The position numbers and the translations under genes were made by a program. Below the pieces are notes generated by a model that worked only from the letters and a program-made list of their open reading frames with translations, was not told where the DNA came from and ran no database searches. 64,000 nucleotides of DNA from positions 214,789-278,788 of the forward strand of contig CAZMIU010000001.1 in the NCBI GenBank assembly GCA_964566795.1, in the 5' to 3' direction. The first letter of the stretch is position 1; each line of letters begins with the position of its first letter. This stretch comes from an uncultured Candidatus Saccharibacteria bacterium (GTDB taxonomy: Bacteria > Patescibacteriota > Minisyncoccia > Phycocordibacterales > SBAW01). Shown here in pieces: positions 1 to 14,823 of the stretch.

Positions 1-283
1 CGGCCAGATCCTTAACCCCGTCGTTGTCGTTGTCGATAGTATCCAGACACTGCGGCAAGGGGCCGGGCTCGGTCGGCTCGCCGGAGTTGCAGTAGTCGTT
101 CTGCGGATTAAACGGTAGGTCTGGGCCCAGTTGCTGGTCTACATAGCAGATAATCTGCTCTGCCATAGTCGCGGCCTGTGCCTGTTGCACAGACGCAGAC
201 AGCGCAAACCCAAACAGGGACGCAACAAGCGCCAGCGCTGCAAGCACGCTTGTGGTCTTGAGTAGTAATGGATGCGTGTTCAT
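1..283 (-). CDS. N-terminal part of a secreted Asp-rich (DNDNDG) calcium-binding repeat protein; the gene runs off the window edge
   Basis: Reverse-strand ATG at 281-283 gives MNTHPLLLKTTSVLAALALVASLFGFALSASVQQAQAATMAEQIICYVDQQLGPDLPFNPQNDYCNSGEP...CLDTIDNDNDGVKD. This is a signal peptide plus the same N-terminal architecture as the 12443..13915 protein. It is absent from the ORF track because it is truncated by the window edge. Confidence 0.5.
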   Translation of the reverse strand, partial: MNTHPLLLKTTSVLAALALVASLFGFALSASVQQAQAATMAEQIICYVDQQLGPDLPFNPQNDYCNSGEPTEPGPLPQCLDTIDNDNDGVKDLA

Positions 284-410
284 ATACTGATACCTAAGCT
301 CTTAAAAGTAATACGCGCCCTGCATACAGGTGCCGCTACGACCAGTATGGTCACAGGCCGCTGAACCGAGTATGAAAGATTCACTGCCAAAATTTCAGGT
401 GCGCTACAGA

Positions 411-444
411 AAACACCGCCCCCAACCGGGGCGGTGTTTTGATG
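411..444 (-). terminator. Rho-independent terminator (bidirectional hairpin) downstream of the 451..957 gene
   Basis: aaaacaccgccccaaccggggcggtgtttt is a GC stem flanked by an A-run and a T-run. Confidence 0.6.
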
Positions 445-450
445 CGGGAG

Positions 451-957
451 TTATATAAACCAGTTTAGGATGCTGGCAAAAAAGGTTTGTACTGCCAATA
501 CAATAGATGCGCCCAGTGTCAGCTCTTCTTTAACAGGAGTCGTTGACGCAGGCTCGGCTACCGCCACAGAGGTGGACGCACCAGGCTCTGTAGATACATC
601 AGCTGCAGGTATCACCCTCTGCTCGATCACTTTGCCGTTTGCCTCGTCCTTTATATCTACTGTTGTGGCCTTAGGGGTTGCCTGCACGCGCACCTCAACA
701 TTAGACGAGGTGGAGGTATAGGTCTCCTCGTGTACCTCGCCGTTGGCGTTTGTCTTTATATAGATGCTCGAGGTCGAGGAGCCCGAGACATTGCTGGTCG
801 AGACAGACGCAGAGGTTGCTCCGGTGCTAACAACCCCGCCCGGGCCCACCGTGTTGCCGCCGGTTTGGGACGAGGCGCTGGTGTGGCTCTGTATATCGGC
901 GCTGGCAAAAGCCGGCAGAGCCAGAGCAACAATGGTTGTAACAATGAGTGCGCGCAT
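451..957 (-). CDS. Ser/Thr-rich secreted protein with a C-terminal hydrophobic segment
   Basis: ORF 451..1029 trimmed to the internal Met (MRALIVTTIVALALPAFASA signal peptide). Composition is low-complexity S/T-rich. The C-terminus LGASIVLAVQTFFASILNWFI is hydrophobic. Confidence 0.5.
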   Translation of the reverse strand: MRALIVTTIVALALPAFASADIQSHTSASSQTGGNTVGPGGVVSTGATSASVSTSNVSGSSTSSIYIKTNANGEVHEETYTSTSSNVEVRVQATPKATTVDIKDEANGKVIEQRVIPAADVSTEPGASTSVAVAEPASTTPVKEELTLGASIVLAVQTFFASILNWFI

Positions 958-1003
958 ATCAGGGTAGTGTACTGCCCTGCCCCTGCCTGTATACAGCGGG
1001 GGT

Positions 1004-3790
1004 CTACAGAGCAGGCGTGCCGCAGGCAATAGTGCGGATCTTCTTTATCGTCATGCCTCCTACCGTGCCTGTGGGGTTTGCCAGGCCAATGGGTGTCAGG
1101 ATGTCGGCAGCGTAGGTCTTCTGGAAGGTGTTAACCGCTGCGCGGGTCATCGGGCCAAAGAAGCCGGTCGGAGGCAGCGTTGTGGCCTGGTGCGCGTTGA
1201 GGAAGTTCTGCAGCTTTACAACCTCGGGGTTGGTCATGCCGTAGCGCAGGGTCTGGCTCACAGCCAGGCTGCAGTCTATGGCCGCACCCAACACCGCGCC
1301 CGCACCGCCAAGCGACACGGTAGCCTCGCCCGATATAGGGTCAAACGGCTTGCCCTGTGTGCCCGAGCTAAAGCGCTTGCCGGTTATCGTGGCCTTGTTG
1401 CGGTAGGAGCCGGGCACGGTCGATGTGGCAAACTCGACAGAGTAGGTGAGCGTAATCTGCTCGCCGGCATCCATGGGGCCAATGTCCCACGAGCGCTCGT
1501 ACAAGACACTGCCAGTCGGGTCGTAGAGCACATCAGAGAGCTTGCCGTCGTACAGCGGGCCGGCCTTCTCAAGGTTGGTTATAACGACCTTGTAGTCGAC
1601 CAGTGCAGGCGTGGTTGTGCTTACGCGCACCACCTCCTTGACCACCGATATGTCGGGGTTTTTGCCGGAGGCAACCGCAACCGCCAGGTTGGACGAGGCC
1701 TTAATCTTGCCACTCTTGCCACCACCCCCGCCGCCACCGCCACCTCCGCCGCCGCCAGACGCAGGCGGAGCCTGCACCTCGACAGTTGCGATAGTAAACG
1801 ATGCTTCTGCGTTGCTGCCGTTGCCGTCGCTCAGCGCGGTAACCGCCACAGGGACAGTCACGCCGGTGCCCGCCGGTATATCGCCCACGGTTGCCGGATA
1901 GGTAAATGTCTCAGACTCGCCGCGGTGTACGGTGGGCAGGCGCCACTCCCGGCCCGTATCGGTGCTGTCGCCCTCTGTGTCGGCAAAGGCGAGTTTGCTC
2001 TTGTCGTAGTCGGCCTTAAGCACAATGTCGTCTGCATCGCGGTCGCCGTTGTTGGTGATAGTAAACTCGTACGCGATAGTACTGCCCGGCGCTACTGCCG
2101 CCGGAGCAACCGTCTTGGCCGAGAGCGCAAGCGCCGACTTGCCAAACGAGATGTCGCCGTTCCAGTTGCCCAGCACGTTAAACAGGGCAAAGATCCAGTT
2201 GCGGCCCACAATGTTGGTGTTGATGATGTTGACCAGATTGGCAATAGCGTAGGCGTCACCCGAGATAATATGCGACGTACCATCCTCGGTCACGGTCAGG
2301 TTGCGGCCCGTGTTGGCACCCACATCTATGTCGTTCTCGACAACTGCGCTATTGGTAGAGGAGGCCACCATGGTCGAGGAGTTGTAGCAGTTGTTGATAG
2401 GACCCTCGTCCTCGTCACAGTTGGCCACAGCAGCGCTCTCCGGGTGTTGCAGGCCCTCCGGGTCGCCCTCGGTCGCATCCTCCAAAGAGTCCTCGTTGGT
2501 TACAAGTACCAAGGTTGAGGTAGAGGTGACGCCTGCCGGAGTAGTGGACACATCGTACATCTTAAGGAAGTTCAGCCCCTCAGGAAGTGACTTGGCCGTG
2601 CCCATCCACTCGCCCGCGACACGGAACATAAAGAAGGCCGACGTGCCGCCGACATAATTCTTGTTCATATCGGTAAACTCGGTCGACTGGCTGTATGCGT
2701 CGCCTGTCATCACGACACCGCTGCCCTCGCCCGTTGTCGAGGCCATGTTCTCGCCCGTATTGGCGTTGGTAAGCACGTCGCCGGTGGTGGTGCCGTAGTT
2801 CTCATTATTTATGAGTGCATAGCTGGAGTTCATCTCCGGGGCCGAGCCGCCGCGTGCAAAAAGGTCTACAAAGAAGCTGCCTCCCGGGAGCGTAATGTCG
2901 CCATCCAGGTCGCCAAAGTTGTTGAAGGCGACCATCAGGTAGCTCGAGTTGATGATGTTGGTGTTAACTAGGTTGACCACGTTGGCACCGGCATACGCGT
3001 CGCCGGATGTAATCTCCGCATCGCCATCGCCCGAGGTGGTTGCGGTGTTGCCGCCCGCATCGGCGCGCACAATAACCGTGTTGGTTACAGTAGCGGTATT
3101 GCCGCTCTCTACCAAAAGGTTGGATGAGTTAAGGCAGGTAAGCAAGGTGCACTGCTCTTCGCCCGTCTCCGGGTTTACTGTCGGAGATGAGCCCGCCTCC
3201 CCGTCAAAAAAGTAGGAGAGGTTGTAGTCGCGCAAGTCAAGCCCGGTACTAAACATCTGGTTGAGGAAGATAATGAGGCCGGTGGAGTTAAAGATGTTGG
3301 TGTTAATAAGGTTGATGACATTGGCAAATGCAAAGGCGCCGCCGGTTACTACCGTTGCCGTGCCCTGCCCGCCCTGGGCAACGTTGTCGCCTGTAGATGC
3401 GGTTGAGGTCGAGAAGTTGGCTACCAGCGCCTCGTTAGATGAGGTGGCGTGGATCTCAGAGGAATTGGTGCACTGCTTGTCGGAGTCCGGGGAGAGCGGG
3501 TCGCAGGCGGCGTCCGGGTCTACGTTGTTGGTGTTAAGCGTGTCCTCTACCGAGGTAGACGCGTACGCGTTGCCTGTGTTGATGGTGCCGCCCACATCGT
3601 GCTGGCCGCCGGTGCCATCGGAGGATGTCGCAATAACCTGGCCGGAATTGGCGCCATTCTCGCCGTCTGGTGTCACCACATCCTCATTGTCTGCACGCAC
3701 CGGCGCCACAAAGGCAAACAAAACTACAAAAAGTAAAGAGAGGGCGAAGGAGATAAAGAATGCCTTGCGGGATGTGTGTGTATGTGTCAT
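1004..3790 (-). CDS. 928-aa secreted repeat protein with four copies of a (S/T)GDAYAxANxVNxxNTNI-type repeat, a DUF11-like segment, a poly-Gly linker and a C-terminal putative peptidoglycan-binding domain
   Basis: N-terminal signal peptide (…FVAPVRA/DNE). Repeats: TGGAFAFANVINLINTNIF, SGDAYAGANVVNLVNTNIINSS, SGDAYAIANLVNIINTNIVG. TITNNGDRDADDIVLKADYD resembles the DUF11 conserved repeat. A G13 tract is present. The C-terminal LQNFLNAHQATTLPPTGFFGPMTRAAVNTFQKTYAADILTPIG looks like a PG_binding_1 module. Confidence 0.8.
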   Translation of the reverse strand: MTHTHTSRKAFFISFALSLLFVVLFAFVAPVRADNEDVVTPDGENGANSGQVIATSSDGTGGQHDVGGTINTGNAYASTSVEDTLNTNNVDPDAACDPLSPDSDKQCTNSSEIHATSSNEALVANFSTSTASTGDNVAQGGQGTATVVTGGAFAFANVINLINTNIFNSTGLIIFLNQMFSTGLDLRDYNLSYFFDGEAGSSPTVNPETGEEQCTLLTCLNSSNLLVESGNTATVTNTVIVRADAGGNTATTSGDGDAEITSGDAYAGANVVNLVNTNIINSSYLMVAFNNFGDLDGDITLPGGSFFVDLFARGGSAPEMNSSYALINNENYGTTTGDVLTNANTGENMASTTGEGSGVVMTGDAYSQSTEFTDMNKNYVGGTSAFFMFRVAGEWMGTAKSLPEGLNFLKMYDVSTTPAGVTSTSTLVLVTNEDSLEDATEGDPEGLQHPESAAVANCDEDEGPINNCYNSSTMVASSTNSAVVENDIDVGANTGRNLTVTEDGTSHIISGDAYAIANLVNIINTNIVGRNWIFALFNVLGNWNGDISFGKSALALSAKTVAPAAVAPGSTIAYEFTITNNGDRDADDIVLKADYDKSKLAFADTEGDSTDTGREWRLPTVHRGESETFTYPATVGDIPAGTGVTVPVAVTALSDGNGSNAEASFTIATVEVQAPPASGGGGGGGGGGGGGKSGKIKASSNLAVAVASGKNPDISVVKEVVRVSTTTPALVDYKVVITNLEKAGPLYDGKLSDVLYDPTGSVLYERSWDIGPMDAGEQITLTYSVEFATSTVPGSYRNKATITGKRFSSGTQGKPFDPISGEATVSLGGAGAVLGAAIDCSLAVSQTLRYGMTNPEVVKLQNFLNAHQATTLPPTGFFGPMTRAAVNTFQKTYAADILTPIGLANPTGTVGGMTIKKIRTIACGTPAL
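1719..1757. repeat. Near-homopolymeric (GGN)13 / (CCN)13 triplet tract that encodes Gly13 inside the 928-aa gene
   Basis: ccaccacccccgccgccaccgccacctccgccgccgcc. On the coding (-) strand it translates to GGGGGGGGGGGGG. Confidence 0.7.
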
Positions 3791-3886: not shown

Positions 3887-4579
3887 CTAGATGCGAACGC
3901 GGAGGAAGTTGGTGTTGAGAACGTTGACTGCACCCGAGTTCGTAGTCGAGTTGCCAGTGCGTACCTCGCCGCCTACGCCACCTGCGCCACCATGGCCGCC
4001 TGCACCGCCGGTACCAGAGGTTGCATCGCCGTTGTTGGAGCCAGCAGCCTTGGTTGCAGAACCAGAGTTGCCACCCTCCTCGCCATCGCCGCCAGTCGAG
4101 CCGACTGCTGCGTTAAGGCCAGTAGATGCAAGAGCAGTGGTAGTCTCGTTGATGTTACCAGCGTTAGCCTGTGCTGCGACTGCCGACGAGCTGTTGAGGC
4201 CGCCGTTTACGCGAACACGGGTGTTGTTGCTGTTAGCAGTGTTGATTGCACCAGCGTCTGCCGAGGCAGAGCCGGTTACAACCAAGCCGCCTGCACCGCC
4301 GTTGCCGCCGTTGCCGCCGGAACCTGCGTTGCCTGAGGTTGCATTACCCTGGCTGCCGCTGTTTACAGAGGAGCCCGAGTTGCCACCCTCATCGCCATCG
4401 CCGCCAGTCGAGCCACCTGCCAAGTTGAGGCCGGTGTTCGAGATGGCAGAGGTGTTGCTCGTTACGTTACCCGAGTTCGAGTTGCTGATAACGAGGGAGC
4501 TGCTGTTGACTGCTGCGAGGGCCGGAGTCGCGGTTGCGAGCATGCCGAGCGCAGTGAGTGCTGCAAGAGTTTTCTTCAT
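3887..4579 (-). CDS. Gly/Ser/Asn-rich secreted low-complexity protein with an internal duplication and a C-terminal NVLNTNF motif
   Basis: Signal peptide MKKTLAALTALGMLATATPALA. Two ~75-aa internal repeats (TGLNLAGGSTGGDGDEGGNSGS… and TGLNAAVGSTGGDGEEGGNSGS…). The C-terminal GAVNVLNTNFLRV matches the NxVNxxNTNI repeat of the 928-aa protein. Confidence 0.65.
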   Translation of the reverse strand: MKKTLAALTALGMLATATPALAAVNSSSLVISNSNSGNVTSNTSAISNTGLNLAGGSTGGDGDEGGNSGSSVNSGSQGNATSGNAGSGGNGGNGGAGGLVVTGSASADAGAINTANSNNTRVRVNGGLNSSSAVAAQANAGNINETTTALASTGLNAAVGSTGGDGEEGGNSGSATKAAGSNNGDATSGTGGAGGHGGAGGVGGEVRTGNSTTNSGAVNVLNTNFLRVRI

Positions 4580-5200
4580 ATACTTTCTTTCAGAATTAAT
4601 TAATTGTTTATAAACCCGGCATCCTGCCTCCGTACGGCAAGCATGATGCGCGGTGCATCGACCAGCGTGTGAGCCACAAGCCTTTCAGCGTGCAGCCCAC
4701 GGCACAGCCAGCACTAATAGTGCGGACTATGCTCTGAACTCCACATGAATTCCCCATCTAAATGAACTTGTATTTCAAGAAACAAAAAACGCGAAGCCCG
4801 CCCACGGCGGATACCTCGCTTGTCTACACTGCTGTGTATTGTCGTGCGGTCATATACCTAACCGCTGGTTTCCCTGCACAACAGGTGCAAAACTGTCGCG
4901 CACAGGAATTATCCTACCGCCCTATAGGCGCGTCAATGCAAAAGCAGGCAAAAAACCCACTGCGCATACACAAAACGCGCCTGTCAAAATTGACAAGCGC
5001 GATTAATTAAGACATCACGTGCTTTTTCGTATAAAAATGTCTGGCGATTTATACTGTACAACAGGAGTACGATTTTGGAGAGGGCCCAAGTCCTAGGGAA
5101 ACCAGCGAAAAGCTGTCGGACACGGGCCCACTCCAGAATCTTACGCGCTCAAACACTCCCCATAGGAGATGAGCGGATACTACTGGAGCTTGCACGTCTG

Positions 5201-6229: not shown

Positions 6230-7168
6230 TTAGCGGTTGCGGGTTGGGACACTGCGGTCGGTGCGAACCTGCGGGCCAGCCTGCACCGGCGGCGGGAAGC
6301 CGTTGGGGCACTCGGTAGTGTAGCGGGGCAGCGGCCAGCCAAAGGTGGCAACTGTTTTGCACTTAACAAACAGGCCTATTTGCTCGCCGAGCCCCGGGGT
6401 TTTGGGCGTGGTGGTTGCCGGCTCGCCGCCCAAGCTGCACAAAAATGTGGGCTGCTCAGAGGCCACCGCCGCCTGGAGCCCCACATTGACAGAAAATGAG
6501 TCGCTCTGGGCCACGTTGCCGAGTGCCGAGCCGTCGCAACTTATCTGTGCGGTGGGCACGTTTACCGAGAGGTTGCCGGCACACCAGGCAATGCCTACAT
6601 ACTTGGTAACACCCGCGGGTATGGGCACGCCAGAGCCCGCATCGGCAAGCGCGTAGGTTGTAGATGCGAGCACTGTGGCAGCACTTTGCACTCCGGTGCC
6701 AAACAGCGGCTGCTCCCCCACCTCAAACACGTTGTCGCCGTCGTCACGCCAGGAAAAGAACTCCATGCCCTCTGCAAGCTCTCCTTTGTCTGCCGGGATG
6801 CTGGCATCGACCGGGTCCTCGGGCTCGTTCTCGCCGTTTTCCAAGCTGATGAGGTTGCTAAACTGCAGGCACATCCATGCGGGTTTGTTTACATGGAGGC
6901 TAATGGTGCTGTTGCCTTGGTCGCCCGGCATGATGTTTGAGAAGTTAAAGAACTTGTCTACACCGGGCACCAGGTTTTTTAGGTCCCACGTGGCCGCGGG
7001 TACAGGTAAGCCGTTGTAGCTGGCTTTGCTGTCGAGCTCTAGGCTAAAGCCGTTTGGCGCGGCAAAGGTTATGCCGGGTGCGGCCTGCGCGAGCAGGGCG
7101 AGGGAGCCCACTAGCACCAGCGTGGTGCCAATGAGTCCTACGTGCTTGAGCGTGCGTGCCAAGTGCAT
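6230..7168 (-). CDS. TasA/camelysin-like paralog without the AFFSD motif (TapA-like accessory candidate)
   Basis: It shares the post-signal region with its neighbours (KFFNFSNIMPGDQGNSTISLHV…AWMC versus KFFDFADLKPGDWGEDTIGLFV…YLCA). Its signal region is AQAAPGITFAAPNGFSLELD. Confidence 0.6.
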   Translation of the reverse strand: MHLARTLKHVGLIGTTLVLVGSLALLAQAAPGITFAAPNGFSLELDSKASYNGLPVPAATWDLKNLVPGVDKFFNFSNIMPGDQGNSTISLHVNKPAWMCLQFSNLISLENGENEPEDPVDASIPADKGELAEGMEFFSWRDDGDNVFEVGEQPLFGTGVQSAATVLASTTYALADAGSGVPIPAGVTKYVGIAWCAGNLSVNVPTAQISCDGSALGNVAQSDSFSVNVGLQAAVASEQPTFLCSLGGEPATTTPKTPGLGEQIGLFVKCKTVATFGWPLPRYTTECPNGFPPPVQAGPQVRTDRSVPTRNR

Positions 7169-8615: not shown

Positions 8616-10139
8616 TTAGAGCTCGAAGTTGTACGTTGTTCCGTCAAACTCGATTGAGCTCACATAGTTTGTCGCACCTGCTGGGCCCGGCTGTCCGGTG
8701 CGGACACCCAGGAATGAACCCGGCGAGAGGAGCTTTGCTGTGGGGAACGCCGCTACGATAGAGTTCCATGAGCGGTACTGGTTTGTATCAGCATCCGGCC
8801 AACTGTTGTCGTCTGCTGTTGCAGCAGTGAGGTCAGGACCAACGGCAAACTTTGACCAAGTCCACATCGCGGTTCCTTGGGCATCAACTGTGGTCCATGT
8901 TGCCGGAGGGAGTGCGGAATTGCCGCCCGAGCCCGGTTGCATGGTCAGACGACCCTCATACGCCGGTCCCGGTAACGGGAAGTCAACGTTGAACTGGATA
9001 AACGGCGTATCGCCATCTGCAGTCGCGTCATATACACGGAACTTGAGCGAGCTGATGGTGTTGAGCAGGTTGCTAAACTGCGCAGTCGCAATGTTGTAGC
9101 GGGGATTCGGATTCGTATCCAGCTTCATCTTTGCGCCCGCCTCGCTGGCGACCACTTCCATGTGGTTCTCACCGCCCTGTCCTGAGAACTGGTCAGGGGT
9201 CATGACGGTATCGTTGGTGTCGTTGTAGAAGAACCATGGGTTCGGTCCTACACCGAGGTCATTCTGATTGACCACCACAACATTATTCCCTGCCGAGCAG
9301 GTGAAGTTCGGATTGTTGCGGGACTGCTCTGCGCGGAAGCTGATGTTTGCGGTCATGGAGTCGGTCTGCGCCTGGTTGCCCATTGATCCGCCGTCACAGG
9401 TAAGTGTGCCGGGTATAGAGGTATCTATGTCGCCTGCGCACCACGCAAGGCCAACATACGTTGTTTGGTCTCCCTCAAACGGACCATTGCCCGTCGTCGA
9501 ATCGGCTAACGCGAGAGTGGTGGTTACACCAAGGATATTGGATGCGGGGCCGGAGTCAAACAACAACGGCTCACTTGCCTGCCAAATGTTGTCTCCGGCG
9601 ACCGCTCCGTTGGTGTTTGCAAGGTCTGCCCAGGCAACAAACTGGATGTTCTGAGCAAGTTCTCCGTCAAAGTCATTGTTGGAGTCCTCTGCAACATCAC
9701 CTGCGGCAAGTTCTGGCTCTACAGACGACTCGTCATCATTTGCGGTGATGTCTACGTCTGCGCACATCCACGCATCGTTGTTTATAACGTGGAGCGAGAT
9801 TGTGTTTTCGCCCTCATCACCCGGCTTGATATCGCTTAGGTTAAAGAACTGGTTTGTGGGCCCAAGGTCACCCTGCACCCAGGTACCATCACAGTCGCCA
9901 TTAAGCAGGTCAGGACGAGTTGTCACCTCTTGGACATTCGGATCATCTACCCAGTGGTTTGTTGCATCACACACGAGACCTGCATAGTGTGCCTGAGAAT
10001 CAACCTGCAAGTCTATAGACCCTGCAGTAAACGTGTTGGCAGACGAGGTCTCAACATCGCTAAAGAACGCGCCCGTTGCACTTGCAACTACTGCTCCAAT
10101 GAATACGAGCGTGCCCGCGCTCATAAGTATTCTTTTCAT
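8616..10139 (-). CDS. TasA/CalY-like secreted protein with a SipW-cognate signal peptide; first gene of the operon
   Basis: …VVASATGAFFSDVETSSANTFTAGSIDLQV. The following FNLSDIKPGDEGENTISLHV…AWMCADVD motifs are shared with the other two paralogs. Large C-terminal domain. Confidence 0.8.
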   Translation of the reverse strand: MKRILMSAGTLVFIGAVVASATGAFFSDVETSSANTFTAGSIDLQVDSQAHYAGLVCDATNHWVDDPNVQEVTTRPDLLNGDCDGTWVQGDLGPTNQFFNLSDIKPGDEGENTISLHVINNDAWMCADVDITANDDESSVEPELAAGDVAEDSNNDFDGELAQNIQFVAWADLANTNGAVAGDNIWQASEPLLFDSGPASNILGVTTTLALADSTTGNGPFEGDQTTYVGLAWCAGDIDTSIPGTLTCDGGSMGNQAQTDSMTANISFRAEQSRNNPNFTCSAGNNVVVVNQNDLGVGPNPWFFYNDTNDTVMTPDQFSGQGGENHMEVVASEAGAKMKLDTNPNPRYNIATAQFSNLLNTISSLKFRVYDATADGDTPFIQFNVDFPLPGPAYEGRLTMQPGSGGNSALPPATWTTVDAQGTAMWTWSKFAVGPDLTAATADDNSWPDADTNQYRSWNSIVAAFPTAKLLSPGSFLGVRTGQPGPAGATNYVSSIEFDGTTYNFEL

Positions 10140-10499: not shown

Positions 10500-10919
10500 C
10501 TAGCGCGAGCGCGTTATGCAGCCGCGGCTGTCACACTGGGGAGCCGGCGTAGGCTCTGGTGCAGGCGGGTTTACCTGGCCCTGCTGTCCCCCGATAATTA
10601 CCGTGTTGCTGTTGTCGCGGGGAGGGTTGATGTTTGTCACCGTCACCGTGCTGCTTTGGTCGCCGGTTATCACATTGGAGCCGGTATTGCCCCCTGTGTT
10701 GTTGGAAGCTGTGGCGTTGCTGGTAATGTTGCCATTGCCACCCGCGTGATGAGGAGGATTCTGCGGCACAGTTGGGAATATGTTTGGCAGCGTCGGGAGA
10801 GCCGGTGCCGGAGCAGGTGCGTCTGCATCGCGCGAGCGGTCAGAGCGGTTGTCTGCCGCCAGTGCGGGAGTTGCGAGTAAAAGAGAACCGACAAGCACCA
10901 ATGCAGCAGTTGTACGCAT
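10500..10919 (-). CDS. Small secreted Pro-rich protein
   Basis: Signal peptide MRTTAALVLVGSLLLATPALA. PAPAPALPTLP segment. GSNVITGDQSSTVTVTNIN weakly resembles the GDAY…NTNI repeat family. C-terminal Cys pair. Confidence 0.5.
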   Translation of the reverse strand: MRTTAALVLVGSLLLATPALAADNRSDRSRDADAPAPAPALPTLPNIFPTVPQNPPHHAGGNGNITSNATASNNTGGNTGSNVITGDQSSTVTVTNINPPRDNSNTVIIGGQQGQVNPPAPEPTPAPQCDSRGCITRSR

Positions 10920-11008: not shown

Positions 11009-11272
11009 TTATAGTCTACACCCGCTCTGAAGGTGCAATGAGCCCGAGCGGCGATAATTGATGATAAGACGGCACAAATAGCTTGTGGTCAAGAACACCG
11101 AGAGGGATGTGAGCGCCAAAAAGAGTCCTGCTATCCACATGTTGCCCGATGCGGCAAGCAGGTATCCCGCGTAAAGACCCAGTGGCGTCACTGAGCCAAG
11201 CCCTGTTGAGTTGAATGACAGCATGTCAGTTGGTCCGAGTGCCCCAGCGGCCAGAGTATCCGAGTTTAGCAA
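11009..11272 (-). pseudogene. Out-of-frame TM-rich ORF overlapping the GT2 3' end; possible frameshifted C-terminal membrane anchor of the GT2 gene
   Basis: The ORF encodes TGLGSVTPLGLYAGYLLAASGNMWIAGLFLALTSLSVFLTTSYL (two TM helices). It sits directly 3' of the GT2 ORF in another frame, overlapping by ~45 nt. Confidence 0.3.
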
Positions 11273-12443
11273 ACAGTATGGTGCCCCACGCTGCGATGCG
11301 CGCCAGGACTCCGCCCTGCCGCATTAGTGTGCGCGACAAGACAGAAAATCCGATGAACGCGTACGAGCCCAGGAGCACTAGTGTCATGATACTGCTAAAA
11401 ATTAACTCGGGCACAAGACTTATCCTCAGGGCCCAGTCCCACCTGTCTTTTTCCGGGTACCAGCGCATGAGCCACAACTGGAGCACATACCACGACACAA
11501 ACTGCAGTATGGAGAGCGTAATAAGGACCCTAAGCACCACAGACGGCACGCCCCCGCCGTCTACAATGAGGAGCGTTATAAGGAGCGCCAGCGTGGCGAT
11601 AAACACCACGTGGCCCAAGACATCCTGGAGCACGGCTGTCTTGTCGCGGGCGCCAAGCACCACCTGCACCCCGCCCAGGCTCCACCTGGTACGCTGCCGC
11701 CAAAACTGCCCCAGAGTCTCGGGGACCTCTGTCCAGGCGGGTGCATCCAGCGCCGCGCGCACGCTCCAGCCCAGGGACTTTAGCCGGGTGGTCATCTCGT
11801 AGTCCTCAATAAGGTGGCTCTCGGCAAAGGGGCCTGCCTGCCTAAGCGCCCGGGCGCGCAGCGCCGTAAGCATCCCGTGCATTACCAGAGGCCCGCGCAA
11901 AAAGCCCTGGTCGCCCAGGCGTATGGCATTAAAGCCCACATACTCCAGGCCCTGCAGGCGCGTAAGCAGGTTTTTGTTCTTATTGAGCACGCCGCAGCGC
12001 GAGCACACCGCCCCCAGCGTAGGGTCGCTAAAGAGCGCCTCTGTCATGCGCTTTACGGTCGTGGGCCCCACCACCACGTCGTCATCAAGCGTAATGATGG
12101 CGGCGGGCTTGTAGGGGCCTTTGCGCTCAAACAGGTACGCAAGCGCCAGGTTAAGCGCCCCGGCCTTGAGCCTGTTGTGCGGCGTGCGCAACACCACAAC
12201 GCGCGGGCCCATAGCCTTAAGGCGCGCCAGCACCTCCATAGCGGGCGCGTAATCCTCTGGCGTGGAGTCGTCTACCACCAGCACCTCAAGCTTGGGGTTG
12301 TACCGTACAAGGTCCTCTACCAAACAAAGCGCCGTCGCCCCCGGTTTGTAGGTAGGGACGACGGCGCTTACGTTGGGCTCAAAAACCTTGTGCGTACTAA
12401 GAGAGCGTGTTGGGACTAGAAAGTTTTTGAGCGATACCCTCAT
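11226..12443 (-). CDS. Family 2 glycosyltransferase (membrane-associated processive GT2-like)
   Basis: VVPTYKP, VVDDSTPED, TLDDD (the DxD), and QRTRWSLGG (the QxxRW motif). Hydrophobic C-terminal helices. Confidence 0.8.
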   Translation of the reverse strand: MRVSLKNFLVPTRSLSTHKVFEPNVSAVVPTYKPGATALCLVEDLVRYNPKLEVLVVDDSTPEDYAPAMEVLARLKAMGPRVVVLRTPHNRLKAGALNLALAYLFERKGPYKPAAIITLDDDVVVGPTTVKRMTEALFSDPTLGAVCSRCGVLNKNKNLLTRLQGLEYVGFNAIRLGDQGFLRGPLVMHGMLTALRARALRQAGPFAESHLIEDYEMTTRLKSLGWSVRAALDAPAWTEVPETLGQFWRQRTRWSLGGVQVVLGARDKTAVLQDVLGHVVFIATLALLITLLIVDGGGVPSVVLRVLITLSILQFVSWYVLQLWLMRWYPEKDRWDWALRISLVPELIFSSIMTLVLLGSYAFIGFSVLSRTLMRQGGVLARIAAWGTILFAKLGYSGRWGTRTN

Positions 12444-13915
12444 TACCGGCCAAAGAGCCAGTTGATAAAGCGGGTAAGCCAGCCCTCGCCTGCCCCGGTC
12501 GAGGTGGCGTTAGCCGCAGTAGCCGTCTGTACCTTGGGGTCTATAACGCTACTATTCTCGTCTACCTTAACGTTGGGAGCGACCACGCTGCCCACAGCGG
12601 GCGCTGCTCCTGCCGCAGCAGGTGCCACTGCGCCAGCGCCTGTGGTGCCCATGCTCGTTATACCCTGCGCGCGCAGCTGGGGCTGCACCTGGCGCACATA
12701 GGCTATCTCCTCAATCTGGCTTGCCGAGAGCGGGAAGTCTTTCTGGAACTTGCAGTAGATAGTGTTTATCGTCTTTTGCGTTGTGTAGTACACGTAGCCG
12801 GTAGCGCCCCTGGCCCCCCACGGGGTGAGGATGTCTGCGGCGTACTTGTTCTGGAAGGCGTTAACCGCAGCAAGCGTTGCCGGGCCGTAGGTGCCTGTAA
12901 CCGGCAGGGTGTTGCCCTCAAAGGTGTTAAGGAACACCTGGAGCTTGGCCACCTCGCCTGCGTCGTTCTGCGCGCCATACTTGATATAGCCGGTGAGGTA
13001 CATGGGGCACTCATCCTGAGCACCCAACACCTCGCCCTGGCTGCCGCTGGAGCGCGAGCCGCCACTGCGGCGGTGCGAGCTGCCGCCCGATGAGTCGCCA
13101 TCGTCGTCATTGCTGCCGCCACCGCCGCCCTGACCCTCGTCGGTCTCATTGTCGTCCTGTGCGTCTGAGCAGCCCAGGTCTGCCGGGAAGTCGACTAGCC
13201 CGTCGCCGTCGTTGTCCTGGCTGTCGGAGCACTGCGCAGAGCCACCGCCGCCTGTAGAGTCGGTTTCGTCGGTGTCGTTGGCATCGGTGCAGCCCGGATC
13301 TGCCGGGAAGTCTGTCTTACCGTCGCCATCATTGTCCTGGCCGTCTGAGCAGGCAGGGTTGTTGCCGCCGCCCTGGTCAGTCTCGTCGGTGTCAGAGGGG
13401 CTCGAGCACCCCGGATCTGCCATGTCGACTTTGCCGTCGCCGTCGTTGTCCTGGCCGTCTGCACACTGTGCCGGCAGGGTAGGATCGTCGCCTTCGTTGT
13501 CATCGGTCGGCGTAGAACAGCCTGGGTCTGCGTCGGCATCACCCGGTACACCCCAATCTACTTTGCCGTCATTATCGTTATCGATGCCATCGTTGCACTG
13601 TGGAGGTACGGTGCAGGGCAGGTCGGACTGGCTTTGATTGCCCGGCAAATCCGGACACCAGTCTATTACCTGGCCGCCATCATCCTCGCAGTCCTCCTCA
13701 AACATCGGAAAGATCCCCGTGGTGCCATCACCCTCATCTCCCACCTGGTCAACCAAGCAGAGGATCTCTGTGGCAAGTGTTGCGTGCACGAGACGCTGGT
13801 TTCCCCAAACAAACGCGGTGAGCGCAAGCGCCACCGCCATCATGAAGGCGATAGACGTGCGCAATTCCCGAGTCAACGTCATAAGTAATATGATTACGCT
13901 ATTAAATAAAAGCAC
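12443..13915 (-). CDS. Secreted protein with 4-5 Cys-flanked Asp-rich calcium-binding repeats (CxDGQDNDGDGKxD…DPGC), a Gly/Ser linker and a C-terminal peptidoglycan-binding-like domain
   Basis: Repeats CADGQDNDGDGKVDMADPGC, CSDGQDNDGDGKTDFPADPGC, CSDSQDNDGDGLVDFPADLGC. C-terminal LQVFLNTFEGNTLPVTGTYGPATLAAVNAFQNKYAADILTPWG is paralogous to the C-terminus of the 928-aa protein. Confidence 0.75.
   Translation of the reverse strand: MLLFNSVIILLMTLTRELRTSIAFMMAVALALTAFVWGNQRLVHATLATEILCLVDQVGDEGDGTTGIFPMFEEDCEDDGGQVIDWCPDLPGNQSQSDLPCTVPPQCNDGIDNDNDGKVDWGVPGDADADPGCSTPTDDNEGDDPTLPAQCADGQDNDGDGKVDMADPGCSSPSDTDETDQGGGNNPACSDGQDNDGDGKTDFPADPGCTDANDTDETDSTGGGGSAQCSDSQDNDGDGLVDFPADLGCSDAQDDNETDEGQGGGGGSNDDDGDSSGGSSHRRSGGSRSSGSQGEVLGAQDECPMYLTGYIKYGAQNDAGEVAKLQVFLNTFEGNTLPVTGTYGPATLAAVNAFQNKYAADILTPWGARGATGYVYYTTQKTINTIYCKFQKDFPLSASQIEEIAYVRQVQPQLRAQGITSMGTTGAGAVAPAAAGAAPAVGSVVAPNVKVDENSSVIDPKVQTATAANATSTGAGEGWLTRFINWLFGR
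13150..13560. repeat. Tandem ~96-bp coding repeats (four copies) that encode the DNDGDGK calcium-binding modules
   Basis: Recurrent DNA blocks …ctgccgggaagtc..ccgtcgccgtcgttgtcctggc.gtc.gagca… are visible directly. Confidence 0.6.
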
Positions 13916-14022
13916 CTGTAAATTAACACCTCAAGCATATACACCACCCCCACGTTGTCAAACTTGCCTGAATATTGGATGTATTGCACAGGCACAACTA
14001 AAAATAGCCGTATACTATACCC

Positions 14023-14823
14023 ATGCGCACACAGCACTCGCCCCTGCCCTACGTTGGCACTGCGGCACTGGTGGCCTGTCTTTTATGTCCTTTAGCCGCC
14101 GGGGCGGCGCAGTTTGCCCCCAGCGCGCTCTTTTTGTCTAAAAACGCCGTGGTTGAGGGCGATACGGTGCTTATACACGCCGTGGTCCAAAACGACGCTG
14201 CGGGCAAGTTCCCAGGCAATGTGGTGTTTAGAGACGGCGACACGCAGGTGGGCTCGGTGCCGGTAACCCTGCTTGCAAGCGAGGTGCGCGCCGTGTCGGT
14301 ATCCTGGACCCCGGCCTCCCCCGGCAGCCACAAGGTGGTCGCGGCACTGCTAGACCAGGGCGGCACCGCGGTGCAGAGCGAGGAGCAGACCTTTACTATT
14401 GCGGCCAAGCCCAAACCCAAGCCGGCTGTGGCCACCTCCTCTAATGCCGCCGCAGCGATAGAGTCCTCTAAAGACATCCAGGACAAGATTGGTGGGCTCT
14501 CCCCCGCCGCCGGCGGCGCTCTGGCCCCTGTGTTTAAGCTCGTAGATGGAGCGCGCTCGTCTGTGGCAAGCGTGTTGGACGACCAACTGGCCAAGACCAA
14601 GCCCAAACTGGCCCCCATACCGGGCGTGGTTGCCGGCACCAGCAGCTCCATACAAGCCCCCGAGCAGGGCTCATGGTTTGGCTCGATATTTACTACCGTC
14701 TACTACTATGTGTTGACCGTACTGCGCTGGCTTGTGGGCTCGGCGGCGGTGTTCTACCCGGTACTTGCCTTTGCCTTTCTCTACATCCTGTACAGGATGT
14801 TTAGACGCTTTAGGAGGGATTAG
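14023..14823 (+). CDS. Membrane-anchored extracellular protein with a CARDB/Ig-like domain
   Basis: Signal peptide. VEGDTVLIHAVVQNDAAGKFPGNVVFRDGDTQVGSVPVTLLASEVRAVSVSWTPASPGSHKV has a CARDB-like beta-sandwich pattern. C-terminal TM (VLTVLRWLVGSAAVFYPVLAFAFLYILY) and basic tail. Confidence 0.55.
   Translation: MRTQHSPLPYVGTAALVACLLCPLAAGAAQFAPSALFLSKNAVVEGDTVLIHAVVQNDAAGKFPGNVVFRDGDTQVGSVPVTLLASEVRAVSVSWTPASPGSHKVVAALLDQGGTAVQSEEQTFTIAAKPKPKPAVATSSNAAAAIESSKDIQDKIGGLSPAAGGALAPVFKLVDGARSSVASVLDDQLAKTKPKLAPIPGVVAGTSSSIQAPEQGSWFGSIFTTVYYYVLTVLRWLVGSAAVFYPVLAFAFLYILYRMFRRFRRD

What the first reader, a model, noticed from the sequence alone, without database searches (positions are those of the whole stretch)
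1..14823. A 15-kb cell-surface island in which every gene product is secreted or membrane-anchored, with shared modular C-terminal peptidoglycan-binding-like domains
The region encodes: an Asp-repeat protein fragment (1-283); an S/T-rich protein; the 928-aa repeat protein; a G/S/N-rich protein; sipW; three TasA-like proteins; a Pro-rich protein; a GT2 glycosyltransferase; a Ca-repeat protein; and a CARDB-like protein. All but the last are on the minus strand. The 928-aa and 490-aa proteins end in near-identical ~60-aa modules (…FLN.…TLP.TG.(F/Y)GP.T.AAVN.FQ..YAADILTP.G). These resemble PG_binding_1 domains and suggest domain shuffling among wall-attached adhesins. The layout is what you would expect of an extracellular-matrix or attachment locus.
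Basis: partly seen in the sequence, partly recalled or inferred. Interest (0 to 1): 0.6.

Follow-up and report, generated by a model that had tools for sequence, protein, structure and literature searches.

The report
TasA-like fibre island in a CPR bacterium
A tiny, probably host-attached bacterium of the Patescibacteria (CPR) carries a roughly 15-kb inserted block of surface genes built around a dedicated signal peptidase and three TasA-like probable fibre subunits; this is a known kind of system, in a form not described in the papers searched.

Summary
The gene list is right. All products carry a signal peptide or membrane helices. The shared modules are true PG_binding_1 domains: Pfam scores exceed cutoff, and their profile hits solved PG-binding domains. 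They are 52% identical, not near-identical, and the copy in the 490-aa protein is internal.

The organism is a Patescibacteria (Paceibacterota/Kaiserbacteria-like) bacterium. In six relatives VKOR, the Ig-like gene, CAP, FKBP and TGT are contiguous. Here about 15.3 kb sits between the Ig-like and CAP genes. It is therefore an insertion by synteny, though its codon usage matches the backbone. The "CARDB-like" gene is backbone, and the island runs about 1.4 kb past the window's left edge.

The functional core is three TasA-like genes followed by SipW:
- SipW follows the TasA-like genes in 54 of 54 evaluable metagenomic loci.
- The best PDB fold match of the N-terminal domain is the TasA fibre (8AUR), then archaeal AbpA.
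- The 450-aa paralogue carries a discoidin/CBM32-like C-terminal domain.

The 928-aa repeat/DUF11 family recurs beside the cassette (p = 4.5e-6). The GT2 and the PG modules are lineage-specific passengers.

Verdict: new variant of a known kind; moderate interest.

The parts
1..283 (-). N-terminal part (signal peptide and first acidic Cys-bracketed repeat) of a 405-aa secreted protein with an acidic double-disulfide repeat and a SpaA_4 domain. The rest of the gene lies left of the window.
   Evidence: Frame-2 translation. The full gene is at L001:13218-14435, with SpaA_4 at 44 bits. The repeats C.D..DND.DG..D..D..C are at residues 79 and 123.
451..957 (-). 168-aa S/T-rich secreted protein with a hydrophobic C-terminal segment ending ..FFASILNWFI.
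   Evidence: Signal-like N-terminus and a C-terminal hydrophobic segment. No Pfam family. Orthologue in L003 at 60% identity, and a partial match in L118.
1004..3790 (-). 928-aa wall-associated repeat protein. It has a signal peptide, five 'TG.N.A...TGdA.A.a.vN..NTN' repeat units with no Pfam family (DNA 2156-3691), two DUF11 domains (1313-2155), a Gly run, and a Cys-bracketed PG_binding_1 module (1019-1300).
   Evidence: Pfam DUF11 at 46.6/60.9 bits and PG_binding_1 at 30.1/32.2 bits. Repeats mapped. The family is restricted to Patescibacteria. Linked to TasA/SipW cassettes in 9/24 loci against 0/58 control loci, p = 4.5e-6.
3887..4579 (-). 230-aa G/S/N-rich secreted protein with two copies of the same 'TG...N..NTN' motif.
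   Evidence: No Pfam or NCBIfam family. 84% identical orthologue in L003.
4582..4790 (-). Conserved, moderately structured non-coding leader upstream of the 230-aa gene.
   Evidence: 93-96% nucleotide identity to L003, the highest block in the 13-kb alignment. Fold z = -2.9. No Rfam match.
4976..5001 (-). Terminator-like hairpin (11-bp stem plus T-run) about 200 nt after the SipW stop. Likely end of the TasA-like/SipW transcription unit.
   Evidence: the scan as a whole is at chance level. The hairpin is conserved in L003.
5201..6226 (-). 341-aa SipW-type (archaeal/ER-type) signal peptidase I (DNA 5732-6226) fused to a tail (DNA 5201-5719). The tail has a basic cytoplasmic loop, a third TM helix, the donor-strand-like motif HTLALFADQEYTSGNLLAATTW, and an acidic Pro/Glu-rich C-terminus.
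   Evidence: TIGR02228 at 102.2 bits. SGSM41, THR79 and GDAN94 motifs. Three TM segments. The tail is homologous to a separate ORF in L006. Tail seen in 14 loci: 10 fused, 4 separate.
6230..7168 (-). TasC, a 312-aa TasA-like paralogue. It has an ordinary-looking signal peptide, lacks the first half of the donor-strand motif, and has a short Cys/Pro-rich C-terminus.
   Evidence: 32-35% identical to the other two paralogues. TasN HMM E = 3.6e-74. This type is conserved as the last gene before SipW in the window's clade.
7175..8527 (-). TasB, a 450-aa TasA-like subunit. It has a SipW-type signal, a donor-strand motif, a jelly-roll N-domain (residues ~41-280) and a discoidin/F5-8-C/CBM32-like C-domain (residues ~285-450).
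   Evidence: TIGR04088 at 20.6 bits. AF2 pLDDT 85.4 for the full protein and 80.9 for the N-domain. For the N-domain the top Foldseek hit is 8AUR_A TasA fibre and the second is 7UEG_A. The full-length model (its C-domain by inference) matches neuropilin b1b2, FVIII C-domains and CBM32. 943 homologues, named where named as Patescibacteria.
8616..10139 (-). TasA507, a 507-aa TasA-like subunit with a SipW-type signal and an unannotated, hypervariable ~225-aa C-terminal domain.
   Evidence: TIGR04088 at 23 bits and PF12389 at 22.2 bits (cutoff 22.5). Orthologues are 310-546 aa with different C-termini. The alignment to L003 collapses across this gene.
10500..10919 (-). 139-aa Pro-rich secreted protein with one 'TGD...N.N' motif and a C-terminal Cys pair.
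   Evidence: 76% identical orthologue in L003. No family.
11226..12443 (-). 405-aa membrane-embedded processive-type GT2 glycosyltransferase. Its start overlaps the stop of the upstream 490-aa gene by 1 nt.
   Evidence: Glyco_trans_2_3 at 85.4 bits and Glyco_tranf_2_3 at 77.2 bits. PgaC/IcaA model at 101.6 bits, far below its cutoff of 422. Motifs DDS58, DDD120, ED213 and QRTRW250. C-terminal TM helices.
12443..13915 (-). 490-aa secreted or anchored acidic double-disulfide-repeat protein with an internal PG_binding_1 module (DNA 12746-13036) and an invariant C-terminus GW(L/F)(T/S)RF(I/V)NWLFGR.
   Evidence: NF033662 at 46.6 bits. PG_binding_1 at 25.8 bits. Module alignment. C-terminus conserved in L003 and L088.
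13916..14022 (.). Right border of the inserted block. This is the divergent intergenic region between the island and the backbone Ig-like gene, and it contains a promoter-like site at 13961-13934 on the minus strand.
   Evidence: Synteny break relative to L012, L014, L020, L021, L023 and L038. Promoter-like match. No border repeats of 9 nt or more.
14023..14823 (+). 266-aa Ig-like (sub-threshold Big_3_5/CARDB) membrane-anchored protein. It is a conserved backbone gene, not part of the island.
   Evidence: It lies next to VKOR and CAP in six relatives.
14934..15359 (-). VKOR-family disulfide-forming membrane protein. It is a backbone gene and a plausible oxidant for the many Cys-rich island products.
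   Evidence: VKOR at 90.3 bits. Conserved next to MsrA and the Ig-like gene in relatives. Six invariant Cys in the TasB family.

Best explanation
**What it is.** This is a lineage-specific block of about 15.3 kb in a Patescibacteria genome. It is inserted into a roughly 35-bp divergent intergenic spacer between a backbone Ig-like gene and a CAP-domain gene. It is a composite cell-surface locus.

**The core.** The conserved engine is a four-gene cassette of TasA507, TasB450, TasC312 and SipW. The following steps are inferred from the established B. subtilis TasA/TapA/SipW mechanism (PMC9674648, PMC10151520):
1. The subunits are exported by Sec.
2. The dedicated ER/archaeal-type signal peptidase SipW removes their special signal peptides.
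3. This exposes an N-terminal strand (AFFSD.ETS..N.F.AG.IDL).
4. That strand inserts into the jelly-roll of the next subunit, giving donor-strand-exchange fibres.

**Subunit roles (inferred).**
- The subunits carry extra C-terminal heads: discoidin/CBM32-like in TasB and a hypervariable domain in TasA507. The fibre would therefore display lectin-like binding domains, suited to gripping a partner cell or surface.
- TasC, which has a truncated donor strand, would be a terminal subunit.
- The peptide fused to SipW has a membrane helix and a donor-strand motif but no jelly-roll body. It would be a TapA-like initiator or a membrane-proximal anchor that fills the one open groove of the fibre.

**Accessory genes.**
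- The 928-aa repeat/DUF11 protein is a recurrent partner of such cassettes. Here it is held on the wall non-covalently by a PG_binding_1 module.
- The operon of the 490-aa acidic-repeat/PG_binding_1 protein and the processive GT2 would add a wall-bound, probably Ca-binding, protein and a beta-linked exopolysaccharide.
- The small G/S/N-rich proteins are further secreted components.

**Shown versus inferred.**
- Shown: gene content, domain identities, TasA-type fold, cassette conservation, insertion by synteny, and the repeat-protein linkage.
- Inferred: fibre formation, subunit roles, glycan binding, the polysaccharide, and any role in attachment to a host.
For: **Organism.** The closest MgsA relatives are Paceibacterota/Kaiserbacteria MAGs at 74-80% identity. 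Where TasB homologues are named, they are named as Patescibacteria.

**Insertion.**
- VKOR, Ig-like, CAP, FKBP and TGT are contiguous in L012, L014, L020, L021, L023 and L038.
- Here the Ig-like and CAP genes are separated by the island.
- The same island sits at the same site in the 69%-identity relative L088 and has the same gene order in the 79%-identity relative L003.

**Core cassette.**
- SipW lies downstream on the same strand in 54/54 evaluable loci.
- There are 2-4 TasA-like genes per cassette.
- The flanks are unrelated: mraZ/PBP in L004, COX/ATP synthase in L006.

**TasA relationship.**
- TIGR04088 is above cutoff in two paralogues.
- PF12389 hits 73/80 family members.
- hhalign aligns the signal peptide and donor strand to TasA residues 1-49.
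- The N-domain model (pLDDT 80.9) has the TasA fibre 8AUR_A as its only PDB hit with E < 1e-3, and AbpA 7UEG_A as its second hit.
- The donor-strand segment is the only low-confidence part of the models, as expected for a strand that is not self-complemented.

**Lectin head.** The full-length model matches discoidin/CBM32 structures. PF00754 hits 23/80 members.

**SipW tail.**. The topology obeys the positive-inside rule, with three TM segments.

**Other components.**
- TasC type is conserved.
- PG modules.
- GT2 motifs.
- 928-aa family linkage: Fisher p = 4.5e-6, with an independent example in a Zambryskibacteria genome, where P0064 and P0176 lie on one contig.
Against: - There is no sequence-level similarity to the TasA globular domain. 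The family profile finds nothing in PDB sequences at E <= 1. hhalign stops at residue 49, with 75% probability.
- Pfam PF12389 is below its gathering cutoff for all three window proteins.
- Polymerisation, the roles assigned to TasC and the SipW tail, and any host-attachment role are untested.
- The tail was detected in only 14 of the 59 loci mapped (five reference loci plus the 54 metagenomic SipW loci). An exhaustive single-sequence search found only two further fused examples.
- The GT2 and the PG-module proteins are not linked to the cassette outside the close clade, so their functional integration with the fibre is weakly supported.
- Composition gives no sign of horizontal origin.
- There are no mobility genes and no border repeats.
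Confidence: 0.65

Rival explanations
1. The TasA-like proteins are not fibre subunits. They would be monomeric secreted or wall-associated lectins or adhesins, or camelysin-type proteases, that merely share a SipW-dependent export signal with TasA.
For: Detectable sequence similarity to TasA is confined to the signal peptide and the first ~25 mature residues. The family profile has no PDB sequence hit. The jelly-roll is a very common fold and the TM-scores are only 0.39-0.44. Pfam names PF12389 'camelysin metallo-endopeptidase'.
Against: Of 350,542 PDB chains, the two best fold matches are exactly the two solved TasA-superfamily donor-strand fibres. The segment conserved with TasA is the donor strand itself. 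It is among the most conserved parts of the family (T22, A24-S27, D28, E30, N35, G40, L44) and is disordered in the monomer models. No HExxH motif is present in any paralogue. Tandem paralogues with a truncated-strand variant and a bodyless strand fit an assembly system better than a set of monomers.
Confidence: 0.15
2. The 15 kb is not a functional unit. It would be a chance juxtaposition of independent surface-protein operons that accumulated at a permissive site already flanked by surface genes (Ig-like, CAP, VKOR). Only the TasA-like/SipW cassette would work as a system.
For: The GT2 lies near 0/27 and the PG module near 1/27 other cassettes. The block appears to hold several separate transcription units, with gaps of 300-620 bp and a terminator-like hairpin after SipW. 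L003 has an extra 709-aa gene inserted, and a different TasA507 C-terminus. This shows piecemeal turnover.
Against: Gene order from the 490-aa gene through SipW is conserved in the relatives at 79% and 69% identity. In L003 it also continues through the 230-, 928- and 168-aa genes. The 928-aa family is significantly linked to cassettes across distant lineages. L118 repeats the order SipW-tail, repeat protein with PG module, then a 168-aa-like gene.
Confidence: 0.3
3. The block is ancestral at this site and was deleted in the relatives. It would be core-turned-dispensable rather than an acquired island.
For: Codon usage, GC3 and the unusual codon preferences are identical to the backbone. There is no integrase, tRNA or flanking repeat. 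CPR genomes are prone to gene loss (general knowledge).
Against: All six relatives showing this backbone order, which carry several different candidate-group labels, have the empty site with the two flanking genes nearly abutting; in L014 about 35 bp separate them. Homologous cassettes in other lineages sit in entirely different contexts. This implies the cassette moves.
Confidence: 0.15

Closest known systems
Bacillus subtilis tapA-sipW-tasA operon (TasA biofilm fibres; PDB 8AUR, 5OF1; PMC9674648, PMC10151520)
   Same: Both have a dedicated ER/archaeal-type signal peptidase encoded with its substrates. Both have the SipW-type signal peptide followed by a conserved N-terminal strand. The subunit is a jelly-roll whose best PDB match is TasA. 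In both, an accessory N-terminal strand donor is encoded in tight association with sipW: tapA overlaps sipW in Bacillus, and the tail here is fused to or overlaps SipW.
   Different: This locus has three paralogous subunits rather than one. The subunits are 310-510 aa and carry extra lectin-like C-terminal domains and six conserved Cys. No sequence similarity to the TasA globular core is detectable. The candidate strand donor lies downstream of SipW, is usually fused to it, has its own TM helix and lacks TapA's Ig-like domain. SipW scores 99 bits against a cutoff of 190 on the Bacillus SipW equivalog model, so it is not that equivalog.
Bacillus cereus group sipW-tasA-calY locus (from my own knowledge)
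   Same: SipW is encoded with more than one TasA paralogue and no TapA gene. The paralogues are thought to have distinct roles in fibre and adhesion.
   Different: The B. cereus paralogues are single-domain proteins of about 200 aa. They have no lectin-like heads, no truncated-strand paralogue and no SipW fusion.
Archaeal bundling pili AbpA/AbpB of Pyrobaculum (PDB 7UEG; PMC9245690)
   Same: It is a TasA-superfamily jelly-roll that assembles by donor-strand insertion, and it is the second-best fold match here. That paper also lists Patescibacteria among the phyla with PF12389 hits.
   Different: AbpA is processed by the general signal peptidase, with no dedicated SipW. It is a single small subunit with a TapA-like partner, AbpB, and is N-glycosylated.
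Chaperone-usher pili (Fim/Pap) as a functional analogy only
   Same: The logic is the same: a polymer held together by donor strands, specialised terminal subunits that lack or truncate the donor strand, and lectin domains used for attachment.
   Different: The proteins are unrelated. There is no outer membrane, no periplasmic chaperone and no usher here, and this organism has a Gram-positive-like envelope.
PG_binding_1 (PF01471) wall-targeting modules of hydrolases (1LBU, SleB, phage endolysins)
   Same: It is the same domain family by Pfam and by profile-to-PDB search. It presumably binds peptidoglycan non-covalently.
   Different: Here it is attached to large non-enzymatic repeat proteins and bracketed by a conserved Cys pair. 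It sits at the C-terminus or internally, rather than next to a catalytic domain.

Membership tests
TasA/camelysin superfamily (PF12389; donor-strand-exchange fibre subunits) | SipW-dependent-type signal peptide (NCBIfam TIGR04088, cutoff 19 bits) | tested here: met
   450-aa protein: 20.6 bits. 507-aa protein: 23.0 bits. The 312-aa paralogue has no hit; it has an ordinary-looking signal and a truncated strand.
TasA/camelysin superfamily (PF12389; donor-strand-exchange fibre subunits) | Pfam PF12389 at or above the gathering score (22.5 bits) across the domain | tested here: not met
   18.1 bits (450 aa) and 22.2 bits (507 aa), covering only profile positions 11-50 of 196. 73/80 family members give E <= 0.01.
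TasA/camelysin superfamily (PF12389; donor-strand-exchange fibre subunits) | Jelly-roll fold of the TasA type | tested here: met
TasA/camelysin superfamily (PF12389; donor-strand-exchange fibre subunits) | N-terminal donor strand homologous to TasA beta0 | tested here: inconclusive
   hhalign aligns the family profile to TasA residues 1-49 at 75% probability, E = 2.5e-5. The TasA reference sequence was validated against 8AUR.
TasA/camelysin superfamily (PF12389; donor-strand-exchange fibre subunits) | Genetic linkage to a dedicated SipW peptidase | tested here: met
   Adjacent in the window (3-bp gap) and in 54/54 evaluable metagenomic loci.
TasA/camelysin superfamily (PF12389; donor-strand-exchange fibre subunits) | Assembly into fibres by donor-strand exchange | not testable with these tools
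   Needs multimer modelling, in vitro polymerisation or cryo-EM.
SipW / archaeal-ER-type signal peptidase I | TIGR02228 sigpep_I_arch at or above 51.85 bits | tested here: met
   102.2 bits over residues 12-148.
SipW / archaeal-ER-type signal peptidase I | Bacillus SipW equivalog model NF046067 at or above 190 bits | tested here: not met
   99.2 bits. It is the same type of peptidase but not the Bacillus equivalog.
SipW / archaeal-ER-type signal peptidase I | Catalytic Ser, His and Asp boxes | tested here: met
   SGSM at 41, THR at 79 and GDAN at 94. Assigning these as the catalytic residues rests on my knowledge of the family.
PG_binding_1 (PF01471) | Pfam score at or above 23 bits | tested here: met
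   928-aa protein: 30.1 bits, or 32.2 bits on the C-terminal fragment alone. 490-aa protein: 25.8 bits.
PG_binding_1 (PF01471) | Relationship to experimentally solved PG-binding domains | tested here: met
   Profile A4 hits 1LBU (7.5e-6), 6TCI/4FET SleB, 7RUM, 5NM7, 4LPQ and 3BKH.
PG_binding_1 (PF01471) | Actual binding to peptidoglycan | not testable with these tools
   Needs a biochemical pull-down with sacculi.
Processive membrane GT2 synthases (PgaC/IcaA, NodC, BcsA type) | GT2 catalytic domain with the D, DxD, ED and QxxRW motifs plus C-terminal TM helices | tested here: met
   Four Pfam GT2-type models score 53.3-85.4 bits, each above its cutoff. Motifs DDS58, DDD120, ED213 and QRTRW250. 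TM segments at 275-293 and 341-359.
Processive membrane GT2 synthases (PgaC/IcaA, NodC, BcsA type) | Equivalog-level match to a synthase with a known product | tested here: not met
   PgaC_IcaA 101.6 vs 422.3; NodC 44.3 vs 550; CelA 26.3 vs 699. The product is unknown.
Genomic island (accessory insertion) | Absent from the orthologous site in related genomes | tested here: met
   Empty site in L012, L014, L020, L021, L023 and L038. Island present at the same site in L088.
Genomic island (accessory insertion) | Atypical base composition or codon usage | tested here: not met
   GC3 is 0.668 in both island and backbone, Mann-Whitney p = 0.86, and synonymous preferences are the same. GC is 0.54-0.60 throughout the window.
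Genomic island (accessory insertion) | Mobility signatures (integrase or transposase, tRNA target, flanking repeats) | tested here: not met
   No such genes among the island ORFs. The nearest tRNA is at 27.7 kb. The borders share no k-mer of 9 nt or more.
Acidic double-disulfide repeat proteins (NF033662) | NCBIfam score at or above 41 bits | tested here: met
   46.6 bits with three repeat stretches in the 490-aa protein. C.D..DND.DG..D..D..C motifs are present in both acidic proteins.
CARDB / Big_3_5 Ig-like domains (the 266-aa protein) | Pfam score at or above the cutoff | tested here: not met
   CARDB 21.8 vs 22.7. Big_3_5 34.6 vs 35.5. Both are marginal, so an Ig-like fold is plausible but the protein cannot be filed in either family.

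The most novel reading that the evidence does not exclude
Patescibacteria may use a minimal, self-contained donor-strand-exchange pilus system. The dedicated signal peptidase would be physically fused to a membrane-tethered 'bodyless' donor strand that initiates or anchors the fibre. A truncated-strand paralogue (TasC) would cap it. The polymerising subunits would carry lectin-type heads that grip the host cell. If so, this is a TasA-derived attachment organelle for the episymbiotic lifestyle, assembled without a chaperone, an usher or a sortase, and with a new peptidase-initiator coupling.
Probability: 0.2. Interest if true: 0.75.

Novelty: new variant of a known kind. Interest (0 to 1): 0.5.

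Why it matters
Patescibacteria (CPR) are a large fraction of bacterial diversity. Most are thought to live attached to other cells, yet apart from type IV pili in a few cultivated Saccharibacteria their attachment machinery is largely unknown.

This locus shows three things:
- A TasA/SipW-type system is a standard, mobile cassette in this group. It was found in every evaluable locus, in unrelated genomic contexts.
- Its subunits carry variable lectin-like heads.
- It recurrently travels with a Patescibacteria-specific repeat/DUF11 protein family.

The SipW-donor-strand fusion and the truncated-strand paralogue give concrete, testable hypotheses for how donor-strand fibres are initiated, capped and anchored in a single-membrane cell without a chaperone-usher pair. 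That question is still only partly answered even for Bacillus TasA/TapA.

The hypervariable heads and the modular PG_binding_1 anchors are also candidate determinants of host range.

Tried and rejected
1. **Sequence route to TasA.** The family profile against PDB sequences gave no hit at E <= 1. hhalign against a validated TasA sequence aligned only residues 1-49. Membership therefore rests on the fold and the signal peptide.
2. **Full-length model against PDB.** Tandem discoidin proteins swamped the result, so I re-predicted the N-domain alone.
4. **Compositional island test.** GC, GC3, synonymous codon fractions and tetranucleotide correlation show no foreign signature. The slightly lower tetranucleotide correlation is shared by one backbone segment and fits the biased amino-acid content.
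5. **Insertion mechanism.** There are no shared direct or inverted k-mers of 9 nt or more at the two borders, no integrase and no nearby tRNA.
6. **Promoter and terminator scans.** Totals are at chance level (6 vs 5.3 expected; 15 vs 14.9 expected). I used only two well-placed sites, and only as suggestions.
7. **Rfam.** At gathering threshold only tRNAs were found. In E-value mode on 4500-5300 there were only sub-threshold chance hits, such as Spot 42 at 26 bits against a cutoff of 80.
8. **Relaxed Pfam scan (E <= 1).** The 928-aa N-terminal repeat region, the 230-, 139-, 168- and 137-aa proteins, and the C-terminal parts of TasA507, TasC and the 490-aa protein gave nothing credible.
9. **Exhaustive phmmer with the 93-aa SipW tail.** Only 5 hits, of which two besides the query's own cluster are SipW fusions. 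The segment is too short and divergent for a single-sequence search.
10. **Sortase.** No sortase gene is in the window. The only TLxTC match is fortuitous and lies inside the 928-aa protein. The LPPTG string in the 928-aa protein is part of PG_binding_1, not a sorting signal.
11. **Rejected readings.** Camelysin-type protease: no HExxH motif. JGI's label 'ribosomally synthesized peptide with SipW-like signal peptide': these are folded proteins of 300-500 aa.

Full report
**1. What is in the sequence**

| Gene (window coordinates) | Annotation |
|---|---|
| 5201-6226 | Archaeal/ER-type signal peptidase I; TIGR02228 102.2 bits (cutoff 51.85); only 99 vs 190 bits on the Bacillus SipW equivalog |
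| 7175-8527 (450 aa) and 8616-10139 (507 aa) | SipW-cognate signal TIGR04088 above cutoff |
| 6230-7168 (312 aa) | 32-35% identical paralogue of the two above |
| 11226-12443 | GT2 with DDS, DDD, ED and QRTRW motifs and C-terminal TM helices; far below every equivalog cutoff |
| 12443-13915 (490 aa) | NF033662 acidic double-disulfide repeat |
| 1004-3790 (928 aa) | Two DUF11 domains |
| 1-283 | N-terminus of a 405-aa acidic-repeat/SpaA_4 protein, complete in L001 |

Every product has a signal-like N-terminus or TM helices.

**2. The shared modules**

Both modules score above Pfam's PG_binding_1 cutoff: 30.1 and 25.8 bits against 23. A profile of six such modules finds solved PG_binding_1 domains almost exclusively. 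These are 1LBU at 7.5e-6, SleB, endolysins and an L,D-transpeptidase. The two copies are 52% identical over 95 aa and are bracketed by a conserved Cys pair. The copy in the 490-aa protein is internal, at residues 294-388. "PG-binding-like" is therefore right. "Near-identical" and "end in" are overstated.

Shuffling is real. In the 928-aa protein's family only about 12 of 120 members carry PG_binding_1. Other members carry HYR, He_PIG, fn3 or nothing.

**3. Organism and island status**

The rest of the window encodes housekeeping genes and eight tRNAs. Judged by the flanking MgsA gene, the nearest species representatives are Paceibacterota/Kaiserbacteria MAGs at 74-80% identity.

In six of these relatives the order MgsA-MsrA-(zincin)-VKOR-Ig-like-CAP-FKBP-TGT is contiguous. 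In L014 only about 35 bp separate the divergent Ig-like and CAP starts. In this genome the Ig-like gene (14023-14823) and the CAP gene (about 1.5 kb left of the window, L001:15048-15974) are separated by about 15.3 kb. That block holds exactly the surface genes in question. A motif just upstream of CAP, TCATGATATGAT(A/G)GGCGCAT, is shared with L014 and marks the junction.

The same block is at the same site in a 69%-identity relative (L088) and has the same gene order in a 79%-identity relative (L003). None of the 80 MgsA-anchored loci (1.25 Mb) contains a TasA-like or SipW gene.

However:
- Codon usage is indistinguishable from the backbone. GC3 is 0.668 in both, p = 0.86, and both share the odd preferences TTT over TTC and high ATA.
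- There are no mobility genes, no nearby tRNA and no border repeats.

The insertion is therefore old, or it came from a close relative. The "CARDB-like" gene is sub-threshold for both CARDB and Big_3_5 and belongs to the backbone.

**4. The conserved core**

The 450-aa protein has 943 homologues in the capped search (8,000 candidates scored). Where they are named, they come from Patescibacteria. Neighbourhoods at 61% and 57% identity keep only the three TasA-like genes plus SipW. Their surroundings are unrelated: PadR/transposase and mraZ/PBP in one case, cytochrome oxidase and ATP synthase in the other.

Across 80 metagenomic loci mapped with purpose-built HMMs:
- SipW follows the TasA-like genes on the same strand in 54 of 54 evaluable loci.
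- There are 2-4 TasA-like genes per cassette.

**5. Are they really TasA-like?**

- At the sequence level only the signal peptide and the first ~25 mature residues resemble TasA. Pfam PF12389 is sub-threshold and N-terminal only. hhalign reaches TasA residues 1-49. The family profile has no PDB sequence hit.
- At the fold level, the N-domain model (residues 22-285, pLDDT 80.9) has the TasA fibre subunit 8AUR_A as its single significant PDB match (E = 7.7e-4, prob 1.0, TM 0.39/0.44). The archaeal TasA homologue AbpA (7UEG_A) is second.
- The donor-strand segment is strongly conserved. It is the only low-confidence part of both models.
- The full-length model (pLDDT 85.4) adds a C-terminal discoidin/F5-8-C/CBM32-like domain. 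PF00754 hits 23 of 80 members, and other members carry SpaA_2 instead.
- Six Cys are invariant, which fits the adjacent backbone VKOR.

I conclude that these are divergent members of the TasA superfamily with added lectin-like heads. Fibre formation itself is inferred, not shown.

**6.

(a) *SipW tail.* The SipW ORF is a fusion. After the peptidase (residues 12-148) and its second TM helix come a basic loop, a third TM helix, and the motif HTLALFADQEYTSGNLLAATTW. That motif matches the mature N-terminus of the TasA-like proteins. An acidic Pro/Glu-rich tail follows. In L006 this part is a separate 197-aa ORF that overlaps the sipW stop. Across all loci it is present 14 times: fused in 10 and separate in 4. 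Its distal part varies from low-complexity sequence to several hundred residues. It is a fourth SipW-type substrate with a donor strand but no jelly-roll.

(b) *TasC.* In the window's clade, TasC always begins G.TFA..NGF.L..DS.A.YNG. It lacks the AFFSD.ETS..N half of the strand.

In B. subtilis, TapA donates its N-terminal strand to start TasA filaments, and tapA overlaps sipW (PMC10151520; PMC9674648). By analogy I propose that the tail is an initiator or anchor and that TasC is a terminal subunit. This is inference.

(c) *928-aa family.* This Patescibacteria-only family has an unannotated N-terminal 'TG.N.A...TGdA.A.a.vN..NTN' repeat region plus DUF11. It lies within 10 kb of the cassette in 9/24 non-redundant long loci, against 0/58 control loci (p = 4.5e-6). 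It is also five locus tags from a TasB homologue in a Zambryskibacteria genome. The same motif occurs in the 230-, 139- and 168-aa proteins.

The GT2 (0/27) and the PG module (1/27) are not general partners of the cassette.

**7. Literature**

Wang et al. 2022 (PMC9245690) list Patescibacteria among the phyla with PF12389 hits. Full-text searches combining SipW or TasA with Patescibacteria or "candidate phyla radiation" found no other relevant paper. The presence of TasA homologues there is known. The cassette architecture, the lectin heads, the SipW fusion and the repeat-protein linkage appear undescribed in the library searched.

**8. Verdict**

This is an attachment or matrix locus and an accessory insertion, but it is a composite built around a widely conserved TasA-like/SipW cassette rather than a single 15-kb unit.
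- It is a new variant of a known kind and of moderate interest. The interest lies mainly in the testable peptidase-initiator fusion and in what it may say about how CPR bacteria attach to their hosts.

Noticed in passing
window 4582-4790 (minus strand); L003:7560-7771: The non-coding leader upstream of the 230-aa G/S/N-rich gene is the most conserved 150-nt block in the 13-kb alignment with the 79% relative: 93-96% nucleotide identity, against 67-88% in coding regions. It folds better than shuffles (z = -2.9) and matches no Rfam family. It may be a cis-regulatory RNA or a highly constrained promoter/5' UTR.
   Followed up: partly
window 8616-9300 (C-terminal half of the 507-aa gene) compared with L003:2859-3791, L004:8877-9842, L006:8356-9897 and L088:6985-8625: The first TasA-like gene of the cassette has a hypervariable C-terminal part. 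Orthologues are 310, 321, 513, 546 and 507 aa, with unrelated C-termini; the L088 one has a weak NosD/beta-helix hit. The nucleotide alignment to L003 collapses only across this gene. This looks like head swapping on a constant stalk.
   Followed up: partly
L001:14499-14912 (about 0.7-1.4 kb left of window position 1): A 137-aa Gly/Thr-rich secreted protein ends in VPNTG, then a hydrophobic helix, then RTRTQ. This is a sortase-type sorting signal. No sortase gene lies in the 64-kb window.
   Followed up: partly
window 12446-12490 and 454-490 (C-termini of the 490-aa and 168-aa proteins): The 490-aa protein ends in GW(L/F)(T/S)RF(I/V)NWLFGR. This ending is invariant in the L003 and L088 orthologues even though the sequence before it diverges. 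The 168-aa protein ends in a similar aromatic ..F(F/L)A.IL.WF. motif. It may be a C-terminal anchoring or sorting motif of unknown kind.
   Followed up: partly
L006:643-4967 (NCBI GCA_964615415.1, contig CAZTNI010000002.1): In the genome of a 57%-identity TasB homologue, the cassette lies between a complete heme-copper oxidase operon (COX2, COX1, COX3, COX4, UbiA) and the ATP synthase operon. This is unusual if that genome is a typical Patescibacteria, since these usually lack respiratory chains.
   Followed up: no
L003:12155-14284: The 79% relative has an extra 709-aa gene (weak HemolysinCabind hit) inserted between the 168-aa gene and the acidic SpaA_4 gene. The window genome lacks it. This is evidence of ongoing gene turnover inside the island.
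   Followed up: no
loci L010, L019, L020, L023, L045, L055, L062, L065 and others: Many contigs whose MgsA is 66-77% identical to this Patescibacteria protein are deposited under names such as Saccharibacteria, Gammaproteobacteria, Pseudomonadales, Pyrinomonadaceae or Aridibacter. These are probably mis-binned or mislabelled MAG contigs.
   Followed up: no
L014:16636-19446: In a relative with the empty site, a 936-aa secreted protein directly downstream of TGT starts with a sequence that by eye resembles PG_binding_1 (…LQQFLNTHGYPVATSGVG…); I did not test this. If confirmed, it would mean PG_binding_1-tagged large surface proteins occur around this backbone region even without the island.
   Followed up: no
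window 42848-44611, 54560-55279, 56690-58455: Several further ORFs elsewhere in the window have signal-peptide-like N-termini, for example a 587-aa protein starting MKAFARLLLVLALVAPTFASA. I did not examine them. None contains a TasA-like, SipW or PG module by HMM.
   Followed up: no
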